DNA of 54,808 bases, filler included, from Jimgerdemannia flammicorona (Eukaryota), in assembly GCA_003990765.1 (NCBI GenBank). It is 3 parts of 3 records of this genome, joined end to end, with 100 filler letters (N's around TTAATTAATTAA, not from the genome) between each part and the next. Parts side by side here need not be neighbours in the genome. Positions count along the whole stretch, not along the records: positions 18,306 to 36,510 come from RBNJ01002264.1; 2 more parts are not named here. One strand, 5' to 3'. The translations under genes were made by a program, and so were the position numbers. Within the stretch, counting starts at the first letter, position 1; every line of letters begins with the position of its first letter. The notes under the pieces are model-generated. The model searched no databases and was not told where the DNA came from. It saw only the letters and a program-made list of their open reading frames with translations. This document shows, one piece after another, positions 8,292 through 40,270 of the stretch.

Positions 8292-11003
8292 TCAACCTCC
8301 ATCCTTCCGCCCTCCCTCCCAACCTTCCACTACCTCCTCCACGGCCACCACCTCGACTTCGACCTCCTCCGGGGTTCCTCCTCCTCCGCTCCCGCCCGTG
8401 CTCCGACCACCGTTCCCATTCGCGCTCGCCTGCGCAAACACTCCGCCACTGACCAATTCGTCCAACTCGGCCATCGAGTTATGCGTCTTGAATATGACCA
8501 TGTTCTCCAGACTATACTTGCCCTTTATCTCCGCCGGCTTCACCGCTAACCCAGCCTCCGTGGGCACGGGGACGGGCTGCCTCGCCAGTACGACAGCGAA
8601 CTCCTCTTTAGCTGCACGGGTGTCGCCCATGAGGACGAGCGTGCGGCCCATTTCATACCGCGCAAAGTAATATAAGTAGTGGTCGAGCCTAATGCGCCAC
8701 GCCTCGCGAAACACGGTCCGGAAGGATTCGAGCGCGCCCGTAACGAGGGTATGATGCCGCGCAAGATCTGGATCCAAAGCCGGCGCATCCGGGTCGGTGT
8801 AGAAGGCCTGCTGGCGGAGGAGGATGCCGCGGAGGAAATGGGCGAGGCAGAAATCGTCATAAAAGTTGTCGTAGGGCAAATCTGAGCCGGAAAGGGAGGA
8901 GAGTAGCAAGATCTCGAGCTGCGCAATCTCAGATTCGACCAGCGATGCCGAGCGACGAAGGTGTACGAGGGGCATGATCTCGTAGCAGTTCCAGACGTGC
9001 AAGAGCTCGAGACCGGGGAGGAGGAGGCGATTGGACTGGGCGAGGAACTTGCGCGCCTTGCGGGCGACGAATTTCTGTTGCAAGGGTCGTGGACGGTGTG
9101 TCAAGGTGGACAGTAGGCGAGTTGAAATAAAATAAATTCACACATGAACAACAAACTCTTCCTACCCACTTTCCAACCCCCATACTCACCTCAATCGGTA
9201 TTGACTTTCCAGCAATCTTCTGTAACAGTCCTGGCACCTTCCCCATCAACCCCTCCACCTCCTTCATGGTCTTCTCCTTCTCTTCTTTTCTCTCTTCCTC
9301 GATCCCCATGGCAACGACATAAGCGCAAATGGCCCTCTGATACGTATACACGGCTTTGGACCAATTGCTTTCCTTGCACAGTATCACGTACGCCCTAAGC
9401 GCCTCGGTATACTCCGCGCTGACCATATGGCAGAGCCCGAGCTCCCAGTAGCAAATGTGATGCAGCTGCTTCCAGTCCGCCTGGATGGCGATGGCGGTCT
9501 CGTACGACTCGACAGCCTGTGGGATGTGCCTCCGGGCCTGCCGCAGGCGGGCGGAGAAGTATAGGAAGAAGGCAGACCGCGGGTAGAGGTGGAGGTTGTG
9601 GGCGAGGATCTGCGCTGCGAACTGCGGCGACGCGTCCGCGCAGGGGACCATGGATGAAATGACAGTGTGATAAACGAGGAGAGCCATGTCGGCGAACTGG
9701 CGTCGAAGGCCCGTCTCCGAGGAGACCGGGAGCTGTAGCGGTGGGGGGAGGGACGGGTCGGAGGCGGAGGCGGCGGACCAGCCGCCGATGGACTCCAGGA
9801 CGGAAACCCCCATAGCGCGGTTGCCGGAGAAACCGATGATCTCAAAGACTTTGAGGACGGTGGTAGGGAGGAGGGAGAGCATGAGGTTAAAGAGGCCAAT
9901 GCCGAGGGAGACCCCCGAGGTCAGGTGCTCGTCGATCTCGTACTGCGCTGCCACCCGGGCGCCGCCATGACCGGGGTCGGCGAGTTCAGCTTCATCGATC
10001 TCGGCGTCGACAACCTCGAGGAACTTTTGGAGGCTGCGGTAGATGGTGTAGGAGGAGCGGATGTTGAGGCCCTCGCGGATGAAGGCGACCAGGGTCTCGT
10101 CGTGAACAATGCTGATAATGGCTTTGAGAAGGTAAGCTTCGGCGTAAACAAGTTCCTGGTGGGTGGAGGGAGGGGCCGCAAGGTTACATTTGATGAGCGT
10201 GATGGCATTTATCGAAATGAAATCGGTCCTATCCTCGGTTCGTCAAATCCGCTTTTTGCCCTCCTCTTCAAAAATTCAAATAAACTCGCCCGTTCCAGTA
10301 AAGCAAAACAGAAATTCCCATTCTATAGGCCACAACCCTCCAGTTCCTCCTTTGACTCATCCCGCAATGAGCTCTTTCCCTTTTGCCCGCAAAAAATACC
10401 ACACCTACTCACTGCATGCCTTTGCATCCTCGTCATAGCCTTCACAGTAGCGACTCCCGCGCTCCCCCTCACAAAATTCGCCAGCGCCTCAACCAACCCC
10501 GCGTCCTTTTTCCTCAGGGCGCTCGCGAGATTGATGGTATGCTTGAGGCACTCTAGTGCCTTGTTCACATCCGCTGGCTGGAACGTCATGAGGGCCTTGA
10601 GATAGTTGACGAATGAGTATCCCAGGGTGTGGTACATTGAGGACTTGTATCCACTTAACAGTAGAGTCTCCGCTTCGGTCATGCGTGAGTCGAGAAACAG
10701 ATCGAGCCCCTCACGCACGGTGGCGAGGTCGGCATTCAGACGGGTGTTTTCGTCGGTTGTGGGGAAGGATTGGGAACGGCGGACGAGGGTGCGGAGGTTG
10801 GGCAGACGAGTGAGATTGGGCATGGATGCAGTGGAGAGGGAGGAGCGCGTCGGTCTGCGGACGGGGTTGGAGGAAGGGGAGGAGTTGGTAACAGAGAGCG
10901 GAGGGGGGGTTGTCTTGAAGGGGCTAGCAATAGAGGACATATAAAATGTGGACCTGGCTCTGGAGTCGTCTGACCGAGGTTTGTTGTTTGAGGCTGTGGT
11001 CAT
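8292..11003 (-). CDS. IML2: IML2/TTC39 family TPR protein; 3 exons, ~779 aa
   Basis: Exons 11003-10413, 10155-9190 and 9074-8292 are in frame. Motifs: QRHA|ELVYAEAYLLKA, SGVSLGIGLFNLMLSLLP, IIGFSGNR, WKQLHHICYWE, ESNWSKAVYTY, KIAGKSIPIE|KFVARKARKF, GKYSLEN. Confidence 0.9.
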
Positions 11004-18329: not shown

Positions 18330-21200
18330 AGTAATTGAAAAGACTTAAGGAGGACTACATCAGTATTTTGCTCCTTAAGTCAAGAAAGAATGAGCTTAAG
18401 GGGACTTGGTTGTATGCCTGCCAAAGGTCAAGAAAGATATAGTGGCTCAATCTCTTGGCCCATATCTCATTCAAGAGCAAGACATAGGAGAGAAATGAGA
18501 AGTGAGTTTATAAACTATCTTGGTAGTACAAAATCTCTGTCAGACCACTATAGGTTTTGAAATAATCTTCCAAACACTGCTCAAAGAGTTGGTGAAACAT
18601 CTCAGTGAGAGCAATAGGATGAAAACTATTGATTGTCTGGGATTCCTCCTTCTTGGGGATTAGAGAGATAATGGCAATGTTCTAATAGCAGAGAGTGAGT
18701 CCACAAACCATACATAACTAAGAAGAAAGACAAGGCTTTCAACAGGCTATAGTGGGCATCCTTCTCACCTGCTATCACCTGAAAGATCCAGACATACAAG
18801 AAGTCAGTACCACAGGCCTTCATGAAGGAGTGGTTATAGATGGTACTCTAGACTATAGGTTGGTTGAATGGCTGCAGTCCAAGGGCCCCCATGCTAAGAG
18901 AGAAGATATCCTCAGAGTTGTCAAGATATAAGATAGTATTCTGGTGCCCAAAAATTATAGTAAAATAGAATACCACATCATAAAATCTAGAAGAGCAGAG
19001 GAGTGAGATTGAAGAAGAGCAGGCAGGGTAGAGTAGTATGCTCACTTAAAACCATAAATGATATTAGAGACTGAGGATGTACTGTGAAGAAGGTCCTGTT
19101 ACAGAAGCAGTACTGCTCTGATTTCCCTAGTGTCATATGAGCCCAGAATGTTCTTACAGATAGACTATAGACCAGATATCAAAAGAGAGTCAAGGGAATC
19201 TACAAACTGCTATTGATCTTCTACAGAGTAAAAGCCAGAGATATGGTCCTGAACACAGTAGATAGACCTGATAATGGTAGTATAAATAATATCTGAAGAT
19301 TTCTGAAGATGGAACTTGGATAACTAGGTTGATCAGATATTTTACAGAGAAATAGTAGACACTAGCCAAGATAGCAACCAGTAAGGAAGAGAAAAGAAAG
19401 AGATGGTGAGAAGAGAGAGGTGGTCAGTAGTAATAAGAGGGGTAGAGTAGGTGAGAGATATGTGGAGAGACACAGTAGTGAACATATGATCAATGTGTGT
19501 GGATCCAGCCACTAAGGTCAAATGATTCAATGACTATGTCATCTTAGAGATATCAATACCATCTGATCATAAGGACTAGAGTTGAAATCACAATGCAGAT
19601 ACCAAAGTATATATTGATATCAACAATTATAAGAGCCTTACTCAGAAAGAGACCAGATACAAGATCTCAGAAACCACCAATAGGAAGAGAGAGTAGAGCA
19701 TAAACTCCAACCAATGCTAAGCCCTAGAACATGAGCTAAATATTGAAAGAGTTGGCAGAGGACCCAGAAATATTGAGGGTAAAATGGTTTAATATAAGGA
19801 CTATAAGACCACCATTCTGGTGACCTATGATCCTAAGTAATACCAGAGAATAAAATATATGAATAAGTGGAGAGTGATACTTTAAAATATACAATATTTC
19901 ACAAATGAAAAGAATGTTAAGGGTGTGACCAATCAATCAACTGAGAATATTGAACCTGTTTTCAGTTAGTCTATGTATATTGAGAAACCTGACTCTCATT
20001 GTGGGCTAAGTACATTAGCACTAATAGCTGGGGAGACACCTGAAGCAAAGGCTTTCATCTTGAGATTTATTGCCATTTTACTTGTTATGGCAACAGTACC
20101 ATCTATCTTCAAAGTAGGGCCAGCTAATGGGGAGGCAAGGGAGGGAAGGGTAAGACTAAGTTCTGTAGCCCATATCTTATAGAAGTTCTGTACCACAGGC
20201 CATATTACCAGCCAACTATTAGTCCCAGGCATAGAAGGATTAGAGGATCTGTACATTCATAACCTCTATAGTATTCTTGTTTTGGGGGAGTATAGGGTCT
20301 CAGACTGAGAGTACTAAGAACCTGAGTACCTTTATCTTCTTTTGAAACATCATGATATAATCAGAATATAAAAGAAATTCAATGATTAATACCAAGATAT
20401 ATGACATATTGAGAACTTTTGATAACATCACATAGATATTGTATAGGTTCTTCTTGATCTGCCCAATCTTCAAATAGCAAAGCCATCAATATAAATACAC
20501 TACAGCTAAGTGCCCTTCTCAGCTAGTGACAAATGAGAGATCAGCTTGTGAGTCATATATAATAGAGCAGCTACAGCAGTAGCTCTCTCTGGCTCAGGGT
20601 ATGCCTGGCTCTTATCTTTGATATAAATCTTCTTGGCAGTGGCAGTATATGATTTGAGAAAGACAAGAGTCAAGATGGGGGACAGATGGACTAGCAGTAC
20701 TAGGTCCTGCAGGTATAATCTGGAGCACAAGCTCAGGGGCCTTGGCTTTGCTCTTTTTCAAGAGTATGGTTTTGGTGACCAAAGGCATAACTATGGGAGT
20801 TGTCTCCTTATGAAGTATACTAGACTGTGATATAGTAGCTTTAGTAGTTCACTTGTTTACTCATTTCTGGACCTCCAACTATATGTTTATGACAAGACTA
20901 GTAAGAGGGAAGGCCAAAGACTTTTGGGGGTAGTAGTGGATAGAGCAGTGAAGATACTTCTCAAAGGGGCACCAGATGATAGAAGGATGATGGATGCAGA
21001 TTATACAGTAAGCTGCACCATTAGTTGAGTATTAATTTTGACCAAATTGGTCACTTGAGTCAGCAGATCTGAGATCTGCTTTCTCATGACAGCCATCTCT
21101 TTGATCAAATCAGAGTTGGTTGAGAGGCTTGTATGACTGGCAGTCAGGGTCATATCTAAACTAATGTTTGGGCAATCATACTTATCGTATGTAAGGGGTA
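18330..21200 (-). mobile_element. Decayed LINE (non-LTR retrotransposon): ORF1 plus ORF2 (APE endonuclease and start of RT), cut by the contig end
   Basis: Minus-strand relics: ORF1-like region ~21150-20000; APE-like ILFICE, GHQNGGL, VGVYA..LIIVDIN; RT motif IFLDLWQAYNQVP (from FLDLxxAYDRVP) near 18400. There are many stops. 18330-19450 is homologous to 24820-25950. Confidence 0.75.
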
Positions 21201-22139
21201 GGGGTATAGGAGAGAAGACAGAGTACTGGGCATTATGGTCTGAATCAGAGGTGATTGTGATCTCCTTATTATCCTCTACATTATATAGTAAAGATAAATA
21301 TACTAATATTGATTATATATACTAATACAATATACATATCACTATAAGGATACTCTTGCCAAAGTCAAGAGAGAGAAGGCTGATATTGTAGGATTTAGTA
21401 TAGTAGAGAGAAATGCTAAAGTACATAAAGAGATAGATCTCATTTGCATTATTACCGATAATAGAGAAGTTGGCTGAAATTGCTGAAATAGGCAGAGATG
21501 GGTTTGTTTGTTTGTTTGAAATTGTAAAAAATAAGTCATATGATCTTTATTTATATAATTAAAAAATAATAGTCAAGTAGGGTATTTATACCTATTGAGA
21601 GGCCTAGCTAATCAAAGTGATTGCTTTCTTAATTTGGAAAGGCTTTGGGCCATAAAGCCAAGGCTAGCCAAATAGGGAAATCATGTGTTAGAGTTAGGTT
21701 AGGGCTAGGGTTAGAGCTAGGCTTCAAGTAAGGATTTAATTATTATAAAAAAGAAAAGATACATCAGAGCAATAAAAGATAAAAACTCCTAAGATGAGAA
21801 AGCAAAAAGAGACCAGTGAAGTAAATAACGAGCTAAGAAAAATAAAATAAGTTTAAAGAAGTAATTACTCTATAGACAGACTGGATAAACCATTTAGTCA
21901 TGACTGTAAAGATAACAAATACAAAAAGCAAAGTGAGAGAAGCTAAAGAAAATATACATAAGTCTGATATCAACTATAGGAATAATATTGACAACCAAAT
22001 ACCAAGTGGCTAATATGAGATATATAACTCAATATGCTCTCAACAATAAGGAATCAACTGAGACAAATGAGATAAAGAAAGAAATTAAGAAAATGCATAA
22101 TTATCTAATCACTCAAGCATATTCATAATTTTGCTCAGA

Positions 22140-25100
22140 TAGAACCTGACTACAAGGTAGCTACAGAATTATACATAGCATTGATAGTATAGTAGGCAGT
22201 CTCATAAAGAGCATGAAGAGAGTAGGCATGAAGTTCTTCCTGTCACTCTTCATTAGTAAACTAGTCAAGTTGTTCATGACTAGTATTATCTTGAAAGACT
22301 GAATATGAACCATCAAGAAGACCACACCTATGGAGATGGTCATAATAAAACTTATCTATATAGAGGCAGGGGCAGAGTTGGCCAAAGTAGCTATAGTACC
22401 AGATAAGGGCAGATTTCCAGAAGAGTCGACTGCCCAGAGTCCTCGTTTGCACCATGTCCACTCCACGCGTCCACCAGCTCACCACCGCCCCAATCACAAC
22501 CCATGCCTTCACCCACGACAGGGAGAAGCTCGCCATCTGCCCCAACACCAATGAGGTCCACATCTACAAGTCGCTTGGTGATAACTGGACCTTGGAACAT
22601 ACTCTCAGCGATCATGACCAAATAGTCACCAGCGTTGACATCGCCCCAAACACGAACCGTATCGTAACCTGCTCGCAGGACCGCAATGCGTATGTGTGGT
22701 CCTTCGATGGTCTTCATTGGAAGCAGACCTTAGTGTTGCTGCGTATCAACCGCGCTGCTACTTATGTCCGCTAGTCCCCCAATGGGGACAACTTTGCGGG
22801 CCAGCGGTGCGCGCGCTATCTCCATCTGTTACTTTGAGGAGGACAACGATTGGTGGGTCAGCAAGCACCTAAAGAAACCCATCCGCTCTACCGTCCTTTC
22901 CGTCGACTGGCACCCGGACAACGTCCTCCTGGCTGCCGGCTCCGCCGAAAACAAAGCCCGTGTATTCTCCGCTTTCATTAAAGGTGTCGACAAAAGACCT
23001 TTTCCCAGCGTGTGGGGCGACAAATTGCCTTTCAACACCGTCTGCGGCGAGTTCTCTAGTCGCGGTTGGGTACATGATGTCGCATTCTCTCCATCAGGCG
23101 ACGCACTGGCCTTTACTGGTCATGACGCATCTGTACATGTCGTTTACCCCGTTCCCGACCAGGCTCCTGTCGTCGTCACCATCGATACTCCTAGCCTACC
23201 TTACCTCTCTCTCTTCTGGGCCTCTGAGAACAGTATCGTTGCAGCTGGACATGATTGTGCGCCGGCCTTGTTCGAAAAATCCAATGGCCAGGATTGGCAT
23301 CTGTCGGGCTCCCTCGACCAAGGCAAGAAGAAGGTATCTGCTGATGCCAGCGTTCTCAACCGATTCCGGCAGTTGGATTCGCGTGGGCAGGCCGACCTTA
23401 ACACGACCCATCAAAACACCATCACTCAAATCTTGCCTTATGCTGGCACTCGCGATAACATTACCCATTTCTCTACTTCGGGTGTTGACGGCAAGCTTGT
23501 CATTTGGGAACTCGATCCAAGCCGTGTCTCGGCCATCCTCTCCAATCTGAAGATCTAGATCTAGATCGTCAATATTTGGGAGCTTCGGGCAATCAAGTTG
23601 AGATTGGGAAGACACGCAGCGATACTATGTATTTGTCGTGTGCTTACGGTAGTGATCCTAATGGCAAAGTAAATAATGACATAACAAAAACCGAGCATAC
23701 AGATTACACACAAAACACTTGTATGTTTGCTTGAGAGAAATTTTTAATCCGATTCGTGCACTGAGATACGTTAGGCACATCCTTTATTTGGTGTCGTTGT
23801 ACAAGTGTCCTCTCAAAAAAAAAAAAAAAAGGGCAGATTGCACAAGTCAGGAGAAAAGGAAATGACATGGTCAGCCCTCTGTGACTGCAAACAGCCATGG
23901 GGCATGATGTACTGAATGAGAGCCTGAGAGGAGGAGAACCATTTCTGTAACAACTGATCCCAAAGGAAAGACTGAAGGAAGGAGCAGAGTAAGTGAGTCT
24001 TATGGACCTAGGGATGATGTCTCAGTATCAGTCAAGGAAGTCAAGCCAAGAGATCCAATACCAGAACTTATCAATAATAGAACCTAGGAGATGTATGATA
24101 AAGTGCTTGCTGAGAGAGCTGATGGAATTGTTACCAGACTTGCTATACTAATCCATATGGGCTTGGAACATATAGCAGAAATCTGACATTCAATAAGAAA
24201 GGAAGAGAGGCCAAGAATTGAACTACCAAGCAGAGCTGACTAGAAAATCCAACTGCCCAAGTGATAGTATCATCAAAGACCTACTTGGAATGTTTTAACA
24301 TCTTTAGTAGTTGTCAGATAGGATACTTATAGAAGTAGAAGGCTATACTCTAGCTAAGGCCTAATGAAGATATATATAATGACTGGTTTGACTATTGGTA
24401 ACTAGAGGGAACTATGGATATAGCAGAAACCAAAAGTTTATTCTGACTTCACTGTATTCTGTAATATAAGATCAATAAAGTCAAATTCTTTATTAGTATA
24501 TAAGATGCCCAGATATATATAGAGGGGTGGTTATGGTCATGGCTCATCCCCAATCAGTACAGTACAGTCAGCTGGATCAATATAACTACACTTCTCAGAG
24601 TTGAGCTCTATACTGTTCACTGTGAGTCAATTCTCACAAAAGTCAATTATCCTTTAACTCTCACCAGTAGTACAAGGAGTAAGGACAATATCATCAGTAA
24701 AGAAGAGTCTGAGGGAGAAGTCATACTCCTTAAACTGCTTATCAAAAGAGGTGGCAAGAGGATTGATGAAGATGTTGAAGAGCCAAGAGGAGAGAAGAGA
24801 GATCTGGAAGAGACTATGAATGATGCTAGAAGGGCTACATCAGTATCTTATTTCTCAAGATAGGAGAGAATAAGCTTAAAGGAGACTTGATTGTATGTCT
24901 GCCAGAGGTCAAAAAAGACATAGTGGCTTCATTTCTTAGCCCATGTCTAATGCAAGAGCAAGATATAGGAGAGAGAAGAGAAGTGGGTTTGGAAGCCACT
25001 CTGGCAGAATGATATTTCAATCAGACAACTTCAGATTTTGACATAACCTTCGAAATACTGCTCAAAGAGTCAGTAAAATATCTCTATAAGAGCAATAGGG

Positions 25101-25954
25101 TGAAAACTATCAATCATCTGGGCTTCCTCCTTCTAGGGATTCAGAGAGATGATAGTGGTATTCTAGTGGCAGAGAGTGAGTCCTCAAACTACACACAACT
25201 GGAAGAAGAAGAACATGACTTTTGACAGGCTACAAGGGGTATTATTCTTGCCTACTATCACTTGAAGGATCCAGATATGTAAGGAGTCAGCACTACAGGT
25301 CTTTGTGAGAGAGTAGCTATAGATGGCCCTCCAGACCACAGATTGATCAAACCAAGACTATAGTCCAAGAGCCTCTATGCTAAGAGAGAAGATATCCTCA
25401 GAGTCCATCAAGATACAAGATAGTATTCAGCTGTCCAAAAATAATTATAAAATAGGACACCACATCATTAAATATCAGAAGAGAAGAAGAGTGAGATTAG
25501 AGTAGAGAAGGTAGAGTAGAGTAATATAATTGCTTAAAACCACAAATAATATTAGAGACTGAGGATAATTTGTGAAGAAGGTATTGCTGTGGGAGTGATA
25601 CTGTCCTGATTTTCCTAGCATCATATGAGCCCAGGATGTCCTTATAGATAGACTATAGACCAGAGTTCAAAAGAGAGTTAAGGGAATCCACAAACTACTG
25701 GTAATCTTCTACAGAGTAAAAGCCAGAGATATAGTCTTGAACAAAGTAGATGGACCTGAAAATGGTATCACAAATAATATCCTAAGGTTCCTGAAGATAG
25801 ACTTAGACAATCAGATCAGTCTGATATTTCACAGAGAAATGGCAGACAATAGCTAAGATAGCAACCAGCAAGAGAAAGAAGAGAAAGGAGATAGTGAGAA
25901 GGAAGGAGTGATTGGTAGTAACAGAAGAGAGGAGTAGATAAGAGATATATAGAG
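22140..25954 (-). mobile_element. Second decayed LINE copy (RT and C-terminal Cys/His region), interrupted by the ARPC1 retrocopy
   Basis: Translation near 24600-24830 reads SLFQISLLSSWLFNIFINPLA...LFFTDDIVL...LNSEKC (RT QG/ADD region). A C-terminal W...CPCL...HLHRCGLL relic at 22320-22410 continues across the retrocopy. Confidence 0.8.
22416..23830 (+). pseudogene. ARPC1: Processed retrocopy of ARPC1/ARC40 (Arp2/3 complex WD40 subunit)
   Basis: Intronless coding region 22454-23558 with [26 protein letters not shown] and WWVSKHLKKPIRSTVLS. It has a nonsense TGG>TAG at 22772 and a frameshift near 22799. It includes a 38-nt 5' leader, a 3' UTR and A16 at 23815-23830. The direct repeat AAGGGCAGATT lies at 22405-22415 and 23829-23839. 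Confidence 0.93.
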
Positions 25955-39390: not shown

Positions 39391-40270
39391 TATCTCTAAT
39401 CTCAAACAAAAGTTAGAGAAAAAGAAAAAACCTTCTAACTAACTAATAGAAAGTATATTTATAGTAAGTAAGTAAAGACTTATATAAGAGATCCTCTCAA
39501 AAGAACTGATATATAAACTAAGATTTGAAAAGATCTCAATTCTACTCTCTAAGTCTATAGGTCTCAATCACATTACTGTATCAACTCCTAGTTTCAGTTG
39601 GATACTGCTAAATGAGGAAGGTCCTACTCTCTAAGCCTGTAGACCTCAATTGCATTACTGTATCAGCTCTTAGCTCTAGTTGAGTATAGTCAGAATACTG
39701 ATCACAATATCACCCTATTGTCTACTAGCTAATCAAAAGGCCCTACTGAGATAATACTTGCTTTAACTCTAATAACTACCCTCAGCCTAGTATCTAACTG
39801 ATTTATTATTATTACTCTTCCTTTTATCTATAATAGCTATCTCCTCTCTCATCCTGATTTTATCTAAAAAACAGTTATCTATATCAGAACTATACTTACT
39901 AAGAAGCTCACCAAAGCTTAAAGAGCCTTACTATAGATACTAAAACCTATAGATAACCTATACTAGCACTTGATGCCTAAGGTTGGCTAACTCTCTATAT
40001 AGTCCATAATATATCATAATAATATCTTATTGATAATAGCAAAAGAAAAAAGAAACTATATCAAAATAAGTATACCCCAGATATAGTTAAAGATACCAGA
40101 AACTACAAAAAGTAGAAAAATACTAATCTGATACTAATAAAAAAGCAACTCATTACTATTGCCTCTCTTCTATTACTTTGTAATAAGTATATTAATCTAA
40201 GATAGAGAGAAAACAAGTAGTAAAAAAGAGACTTAAAAGGTTGCCTATCAAAACCTTATGACTAGTATAC

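What the first reader, a model, noticed from the sequence alone, without database searches (positions are those of the whole stretch)
22405..23839. Mammalian-style processed pseudogene of ARPC1 in a fungus
Seen: a full-length intronless ARPC1 with 5' leader, 3' UTR, 16-nt poly(A) and an 11-bp TSD (AAGGGCAGATT, first two bases shared with the tail), inserted antisense into a LINE ORF2. Every host gene on contig 1 has introns. Established: poly(A) plus TSD plus intron loss is the signature of LINE target-primed reverse transcription in trans, common in mammals and seldom described in fungi. Inference: this lineage may generate retrocopies routinely.
Basis: partly seen in the sequence, partly recalled or inferred. 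Interest (0 to 1): 0.75.

Follow-up and report, generated by a model that had tools for sequence, protein, structure and literature searches.

The report
ARPC1 processed pseudogene in a fungus
A dead, intron-free DNA copy of the messenger RNA for an actin-branching protein was pasted into an old jumping gene of a fungus, a kind of event common in mammals and little studied in fungi, and this genome holds at least one more such copy and a large family of elements able to make them.

Summary
Confirmed. The 1,399-nt insert is a processed pseudogene of ARPC1. The parent lies elsewhere in the genome with three GT-AG introns, all precisely missing here, and has no genomic A-tract. In 27 of 29 other copies of the host repeat the 11-mer is single, so it is a true target duplication. 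Spliced RNA contigs lack the stop and frameshift. The host is a decayed LINE (CpG o/e 0.03-0.05, insert 0.95), so it was dead before the insertion and is probably not the driver. A better candidate is an abundant poly(A)-tailed L1-like family (15,819 search candidates); this link is inferred. Targeted searches found a second full-hallmark retrocopy (actin, 17-bp duplication) and a Rab6 candidate, but 0 of 98 poly(A) tracts screened looked like mRNA copies, so 'routine' is only partly supported. The scan had noted other retrocopies on other DNA of this genome, unchecked here. The copy preserves the 3' UTR from before a later insertion split the parent's. A new member of a known kind, in a lineage where nine literature searches found no report.

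The parts
22405..22415 (+). Left target-site duplication, AAGGGCAGATT, preceded by ...GAT
   Evidence: single copy at the empty site in 27 of 29 homologous repeat copies
22416..22424 (+). First 9 nt of the insert, not covered by any RNA contig: upstream transcript start or untemplated bases
   Evidence: RNA contigs of three runs begin at 22425-22426; the parent's 5' region is not in the assembly
22425..22453 (+). 5' leader shared with the spliced mRNA
   Evidence: Covered by contigs of X1, X2, X3
22454..23558 (+). Intronless, disabled ARPC1 coding sequence; lost-intron junctions after 23118, 23296 and 23425 (82, 149, 83 nt, GT-AG)
   Evidence: parent G000:C23858:1-1028 (L002)
22772..22774 (+). 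Premature stop at a tryptophan conserved in relatives
   Evidence: RNA contigs of X1, X2, X4 differ from the copy here; relatives have W
22798..22799 (+). 2-nt deletion (frameshift), private to the copy
   Evidence: X1, X2, X4 contigs carry two more letters here
23391..23392 (+). 12-nt in-frame deletion between short direct repeats, private to the copy
   Evidence: Parent contig, X1, X2, X3 and the Endogone protein all have the longer form
23559..23814 (+). 3' UTR, uninterrupted; the parent's is split at 23647-23649 by a later insertion with a 3-nt duplication. An 11-nt difference from the parent lies near 23791
   Evidence: Parent pieces on C23858 and C12971; same junctions as loose ends in X1 and X4
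23815..23830 (+). Poly(A) tail, 16 nt; first two As may be templated, last two shared with the right duplication
   Evidence: the parent continues with non-A sequence after two As
23829..23839 (+). Right target-site duplication
18346..25954 (-). Host: decayed head-to-tail array (at least two units) of a non-LTR retrotransposon; RT motifs at about 24579-24794, cysteine-rich stretch just left of the insert, telomere-like hexamers at about 21688-21716
   Evidence: CpG o/e 0.03-0.05; 0 of 30 CpGs of a less decayed copy survive in the right flank

Best explanation
A spliced, polyadenylated, essentially full-length ARPC1 mRNA was reverse-transcribed in trans by a LINE ORF2 protein through target-primed reverse transcription. 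The endonuclease nicked at ...AT|AAGGG..., the exposed TT paired with the poly(A) tail, and a second nick 11 nt away gave the duplication. It landed in an already dead, CpG-eroded LINE array, has no promoter, and has since gained a stop, a frameshift and further deletions. It encodes nothing. SHOWN: intron loss, untemplated tail, true duplication, private lesions, younger than its host. INFERRED: the priming chemistry (from established L1 biology) and the driver, most likely the abundant poly(A)-tailed L1-like family (about 0.6 for that step alone).
For: Three of three introns in the assembled part of the parent are lost precisely; 10 substitutions in 872 aligned nt. No genomic A-tract at the parent's 3' end. 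Single 11-mer at the empty site in 27 of 29 copies. RNA contigs are colinear with the copy from 22426 to 23649 but lack its stop, frameshift and 12-nt deletion. 1 of 51 parental CpGs mutated in the copy against 30 of 30 in the host flank. Candidate driver: poly(A)-tailed family with AATAAA (18 of 98 tracts in one cluster), RVT_1 E 1.6e-30, endonuclease-like motifs upstream (motif identity recalled), best match human L1 ORF2p E 2e-40 against R2 7e-17, 15,819 candidates with 150 scored at 88-96% identity apart from the query itself, and frames up to 1,230 aa. Two of its insertions have 17- and 21-bp duplications starting at AT|AA, like this site. Independent case: actin copy with 17-bp duplication, tail and intron loss.
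Against: The junctions were not checked on DNA reads: no DNA run held more than 0.12 of the words and only RNA-type contigs were laid. The parent's first 532 nt are missing from the assembly, so intron loss there and the origin of 22416-22424 are untested. No sequence feature ties the copy to one LINE family. No fully open ORF2 of the candidate family was shown: both ~1,230-aa frames have a stop inside the matched part. The Pfam LINE endonuclease family found no match in the genome. Three deletions against about 15 substitutions is indel-rich and unexplained.
Confidence: 0.93

Rival explanations
1. Same mechanism, but driven by an active member of the host LINE family or another non-LTR or Penelope-like element.
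For: The insert sits inside that family; it has 385 search candidates and copies with less CpG decay (o/e 0.47-0.58). Earlier scan notes list further retroelement families in this genome (unchecked).
Against: The host copy had lost its CpGs before the insertion. Its copies end near telomere-like hexamers rather than poly(A), and its RT is no closer to L1 than to R2 (E 2e-10 and 3e-10).
Confidence: 0.25
2. Free cDNA made by an LTR-element reverse transcriptase was captured at a staggered double-strand break, with no LINE endonuclease.
For: Ty1 makes retrosequences and its cDNA is captured at breaks in yeast (PMC7175516, passages). Deletions in the copy fall between short repeats.
Against: No LTR sequence flanks the copy; full length, a tail, no loss of target DNA and an exact 11-bp duplication are the LINE hallmarks (PMC5470649, passages); the actin copy repeats the pattern with 17 bp.
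Confidence: 0.05
3. Assembly artefact or contaminating cDNA joined to repeat DNA.
For: No DNA reads were laid; the assembly is fragmented (35,354 contigs) and the parent's contig starts inside an exon shared with the copy.
Against: An artefact would not duplicate 11 nt of host sequence, carry lesions absent from RNA contigs of four runs, or keep a 3' UTR that the assembled parent has interrupted.
Confidence: 0.02
4. A functional retrogene, with the stop and frameshift as sequencing errors.
For: Full length and about 99% identical to the parent.
Against: Three separate coding lesions, none seen in RNA contigs covering them; no promoter-like DNA upstream, only decayed LINE.
Confidence: 0.01

Closest known systems
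L1-mediated processed pseudogenes of mammals (PMC5470649, passages; PMC3747384, abstract and passages)
   Same: Intron loss, poly(A) remnant, target duplication, complete 3' UTR, housekeeping parent, disabling mutations, and a poly(A)-tailed L1-like family in the same genome.
   Different: Host is an early-diverging fungus. The target is ...AT|AAGGG, looser than the mammalian TT|AAAA (consensus recalled). Density appears far lower. The driver is inferred, not shown in cells.
Processed pseudogenes of flowering plants, attributed to L1-clade LINEs with relaxed poly(A) recognition (PMC3747384)
   Same: Poly(A)-tailed L1-like LINEs, poly(A)-tailed non-autonomous elements and mRNA copies in one genome.
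   Different: That review discusses mammals, plants and algae; its one occurrence of the word 'fungi' was not among the passages shown.
Magnaporthe grisea chimeric retropseudogenes, MINE/MGL (PMC2104539, passages)
   Same: Fungal LINE reverse transcriptase copying a cellular RNA, 10-20-bp duplications.
   Different: Those are mostly template-switch chimeras of a non-coding RNA fused to a LINE 3' end; here a protein-coding mRNA stands alone with its own tail.
Fusarium graminearum processed pseudogenes (PMC12311193, passages)
   Same: Intron-less copies of fungal genes: 11 of 162 curated cases.
   Different: Those cover about 27% of the parent on average, and A-rich tracts did not discriminate them; this one is full length with all hallmarks.
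Ty1 retrosequences of yeast and Zorro3 of Candida albicans (PMC7175516, PMC1965478, passages)
   Same: Fungal reverse transcriptases; Ty1 copies cellular RNA; Zorro3 is a target-primed, poly(A)-ended element.
   Different: Ty1 is an LTR route. Zorro3 inserts into poly(A) tracts without large target duplications, and the passages seen do not describe mRNA copies.

Membership tests
Processed pseudogene (LINE-type retrocopy) | Intron-containing parent elsewhere in the genome, introns lost precisely | tested here: met
   3 of 3 introns in the assembled 3' part; the 5' 532 nt of the parent are not assembled
Processed pseudogene (LINE-type retrocopy) | Untemplated poly(A) at the mRNA 3' end | tested here: met
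   Parent has only two As at that point
Processed pseudogene (LINE-type retrocopy) | Target-site duplication, single at the empty site | tested here: met
   27 of 29 homologous copies overlap by 11 nt
Processed pseudogene (LINE-type retrocopy) | Homology limited to the transcribed region | tested here: met
   3' end stops at the tail; 5' end lies 9-10 nt before the RNA contig starts, those bases unexplained
Processed pseudogene (LINE-type retrocopy) | Disabled, lesions absent from the expressed gene | tested here: met
   Stop, frameshift and 12-nt deletion absent from RNA contigs
Processed pseudogene (LINE-type retrocopy) | Junctions confirmed in genomic reads | not testable with these tools
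   No DNA run held the stretch above 0.12 of its words
L1-clade LINE (candidate driver family) | APE endonuclease followed by RT in ORF2 | tested here: inconclusive
   RT met; endonuclease read from recalled motifs in 3 of 5 copies examined; PF14529 found nothing in the genome
L1-clade LINE (candidate driver family) | 3' AATAAA plus poly(A), 5' truncation, target duplication | tested here: met
   Cluster of 18 of 98 tracts; truncated copies of 680 and 190 nt with 17- and 21-bp duplications
L1-clade LINE (candidate driver family) | RT groups with L1 in a phylogeny of LINE clades | tested here: inconclusive
   No tree built; only a comparison with solved structures, where L1 (2e-40) beats R2 (7e-17) and other clades did not appear
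L1-clade LINE (candidate driver family) | Mobilises poly(A) RNAs in trans | not testable with these tools
   Circumstantial: mRNA copies and a poly(A)-tailed non-autonomous family in the same genome
Functional retrogene | Intact reading frame | tested here: not met
ARPC1 / Arp2/3 41-kDa subunit (parent) | Sequence match to ARPC1 above other WD40 proteins | tested here: met
   E 1e-79 against 2e-5 for the next family; homologue names

The most novel reading that the evidence does not exclude
This Endogonales-like fungus carries a massively amplified L1-like element with relaxed, poly(A)-only template recognition, a fungal parallel to mammals and flowering plants. It has produced tens to hundreds of mRNA retrocopies, some with intact frames (actin, Rab6), and may have seeded intronless gene families such as the Ras-like paralogues. 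The copies also record earlier transcript structures.
Probability: 0.45. Interest if true: 0.7.

Novelty: new member of a known kind. Interest (0 to 1): 0.5.

Why it matters
A 2017 review notes that gene retroposition has been little studied in fungi (PMC5470649, passage), and the fungal cases I found are fragments, chimeras or LTR-derived. This case has parent, empty site, transcript and a candidate enzyme family in one genome, plus a second complete example. That makes testable whether L1-like amplification, rather than being a mammal or a plant, decides where retrocopies form. It also gives an internal clock for CpG decay in repeats (1 of 51 CpGs mutated here, 9 of 96 in the actin copy, 30 of 30 in the host). 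Such copies can also break short-read assemblies at their parent genes (inferred from where the parent's contig begins).

Tried and rejected
1) The 5' part of the parent: protein and DNA searches found only the copy itself. 2) Unbiased screen: the first 100 listed of 21,424 A16 tracts (contigs C1-C25 only) gave 98 analysable tracts; 9 had an exact duplication against 22 of 490 control positions, about 4 expected by chance. None looked like an mRNA copy by CpG content and 3'-end clustering; only four upstream stretches were scanned on Pfam: two gave nothing, one a low-complexity collagen-like hit, one an intron-containing AMP deaminase gene. The screen would miss interrupted tails like the actin copy's. 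3) EF-1alpha family (16 rows, 8 contigs) and tubulins (7 rows, 5 contigs): no retrocopy; one intron-containing tubulin gene has a genomic A45 tract downstream, so a tract alone proves nothing. 4) Ras family: 78 rows, 18 intronless over nearly the whole domain, 15 fetched; none showed tail plus duplication. A 14-nt repeat around L201 was rejected because it does not abut the A-run. The Rab6 copy has no duplication in the DNA fetched, and its downstream A27 belongs to a separate repeat. 5) PF14529 search of the genome: no match. 6) No RNA cover on the LINE flanks: contigs cannot show absence, so not used as evidence. 7) RIP-type mutation considered for the flanks and not favoured: CpG is lost while CA and TG are not depleted. 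8) In the empty-site test 2 of 29 loci did not give 11: one paired with a neighbouring tandem unit, one gave 6. 9) Literature searches listed no paper on mRNA retrocopies in Mucoromycota; only listings were seen for most, the library lacks most subscription journals, and no supplements were read.

Full report
Observation. The window is three contigs joined by N spacers; the finding lies on G000:C2264. The sequence shows AAGGGCAGATT at 22405-22415 and 23829-23839, a 1,399-nt insert between them, and A16 at 23815-23830. The insert reads as an ARPC1 coding sequence from 22454, broken by a TAG at 22772 and a frameshift near 22798. ARPC1 subunits are the best solved-structure matches (E 1e-79; next family 2e-5). 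The closest named homologues are from Endogonales, Mucoromycota (98% and 84%), which I use only as lineage.

Parent. A genome search gave, besides the copy, four exon matches on C23858 and one 3' UTR match on C12971. The gaps are three GT-AG introns of 82, 149 and 83 nt, each absent from the copy with no leftover base. Copy and parent differ by 10 substitutions in 872 aligned nt, plus deletions of 12 and 11 nt. The parent has two As and then other sequence where the tail begins, so the tail was added to the RNA. The first 532 nt of the parent are not assembled.

Transcripts. Four of the 24 listed runs were laid, all contigs, two of them RNA only by guess. One X1 contig runs colinear with the copy from 22426 to 23649 with 15 other letters and 14 gap letters. 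X1, X2 and X4 lack the stop and carry two extra letters at 22798; X1, X2 and X3 carry the 12 nt. The lesions are therefore private to the copy. Contigs of three runs start at 22425-22426, so the copy is full length or nearly so; its first 9 nt are unexplained.

A fossil 3' UTR. In the assembly, and as loose ends in X1 and X4, the parent's 3' UTR is split at 23647-23649 by an insertion with a 3-nt duplication; DNA on its far side includes a fragment of the poly(A)-tailed LINE family described below. The copy is uninterrupted, so it was made from the earlier allele. One X2 contig goes on to 23681 along the copy, which suggests an uninterrupted allele or a close relative in that run; the table was cut, so whether X2 also holds the split form is not shown.

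Empty site. The right flank gave 385 candidates, 40 scored, 29 loci cut out besides the window's own. In 27 of the 29, left and right flank overlap by exactly 11 nt. The other two gave 6 nt and a pairing with a neighbouring unit. The homologous 11-mers differ from this one at 1-4 positions. The repeat is a true target duplication.

Host. The flanks match RVT_1 on the minus strand and belong to a head-to-tail array spanning 18346-25954. A less decayed copy shows endonuclease-like motifs upstream of the RT (read by eye from recalled motifs, no Pfam hit). Most copies lose homology near telomere-like hexamers, in line with earlier scan notes on telomere-repeat-tailed arrays (only partly checked). 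CpG o/e is 0.05 and 0.03 in the flanks and 0.95 in the insert. None of 30 CpGs of a less decayed copy survives in the right flank, while 1 of 51 parental CpGs has mutated in the insert. The host was dead before the copy arrived.

Driver. The genome has 21,424 A16 tracts. Among 98 examined, 18 cluster as one 3' end with AATAAA and 14 as a second cluster, in which four copies bounded by duplications measure 1.17-1.19 kb and the two scanned had no Pfam hit. The first family encodes an RT with endonuclease-like motifs upstream in 3 of 5 copies examined and is far closer to human L1 ORF2p than to R2; the host is equally far from both. It has 15,819 first-look candidates; the 150 scored are 88-96% identical apart from the query itself, with frames up to 1,230 aa. 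Two truncated copies have 17- and 21-bp duplications beginning at AT|AA, as here. This makes it the likeliest driver, but nothing in the copy names its enzyme, no tree was built, and PF14529 found no match in the genome.

How common. The actin search gave one intronless full-length row among 28. It has a 17-bp duplication, an interrupted A-tail absent from the parent, and an intron-containing parent on two contigs at 93-99% identity; its 374-aa frame is open but carries a codon deletion, and 9 of 96 CpGs have mutated. An intronless Rab6-like gene with an open frame matches 111 nt of another locus at 100%, where a GT intron follows; no duplication was found, so it stays a candidate. EF-1alpha and tubulin searches gave none, 15 of 18 intronless Ras-like rows examined had no tail plus duplication, and 0 of 98 A16 tracts looked like mRNA copies, which caps long-tailed copies at roughly 3% of tracts on those contigs. 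Earlier notes report two more poly(A) retrocopies and several U6 copies in this genome (unchecked). My estimate, by inference, is tens to a few hundred: recurrent, but far from mammalian numbers (thousands; recalled).

Known versus new. The hallmarks are those given for L1 retrocopies in PMC5470649 (passages), which also says fungi have been little studied. PMC3747384 (abstract and passages) ties such copies to relaxed poly(A) recognition by L1-clade elements. Fungal precedents exist: 11 of 162 Fusarium pseudogenes (PMC12311193, passages), Magnaporthe LINE chimeras (PMC2104539, passages), Ty1 retrosequences (PMC7175516, passages), a histone H3 transcript or retrocopy captured by a hAT element (PMC6710886, passages), and Zorro3 (PMC1965478, passages). 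Nine searches listed no report for Mucoromycota; subscription papers and all supplements were unseen and could hold one.

Verdict. Real, and a full member of the processed-pseudogene class on every feature testable here. The mechanism is old; the lineage, the completeness of the evidence and the candidate driver are what is new. Interest 0.5.

Noticed in passing
L076 (G000:C4850, actin match 8938-10053, minus): Second mRNA retrocopy: intronless actin, open 374-aa frame with a codon deletion, 17-bp target duplication, interrupted A-tail; intron-containing parent on C28370 and C19130.
   Followed up: yes
L198:590-1560 (G000:C9063): Intronless Rab6-like gene with an open frame abutting CpG-poor repeat DNA; 111 nt identical to an exon followed by a GT intron on C10897; no duplication found.
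   Followed up: partly
L199-L212; G000:C3192, C7754, C14054, C18406: Many intronless Ras-like paralogues, several clustered on one contig, without tail or duplication in those fetched; possibly an old retrogene expanded by DNA duplication.
   Followed up: partly
L146, L114, L158: Very abundant poly(A)-tailed L1-like LINE family, 15,819 search candidates, some frames near 1,230 aa.
   Followed up: partly
L104, L117, L167, L168; window 39542-40267: Poly(A)-tailed element of near-constant length (1.17-1.19 kb) with target duplications and no Pfam hit in the two copies scanned; looks non-autonomous; a fragment lies in the window.
   Followed up: partly
window 18346-25954: Head-to-tail array of the host LINE, unit about 5.2 kb, with telomere-like hexamers near 21688-21716.
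   Followed up: partly
L002:1029-2426 and L040 (G000:C23858, C12971): Unclassified insertion in the parent's 3' UTR with a 3-nt duplication and a nested LINE fragment; RNA contigs read into it.
   Followed up: partly
window 22798, 23391, 23791; L076: Several deletions in both retrocopies fall between or within short direct repeats; slippage during reverse transcription or later repair, not resolved.
   Followed up: no
L046:80-1500: 1.4-kb poly(A)-tailed, CpG-depleted insert made of short tandem repeats, with a near-perfect duplication.
   Followed up: no
run X2, window 22425-23681: Two ARPC1 haplotypes about 5% apart in one run; mixed sample or second allele.
   Followed up: no
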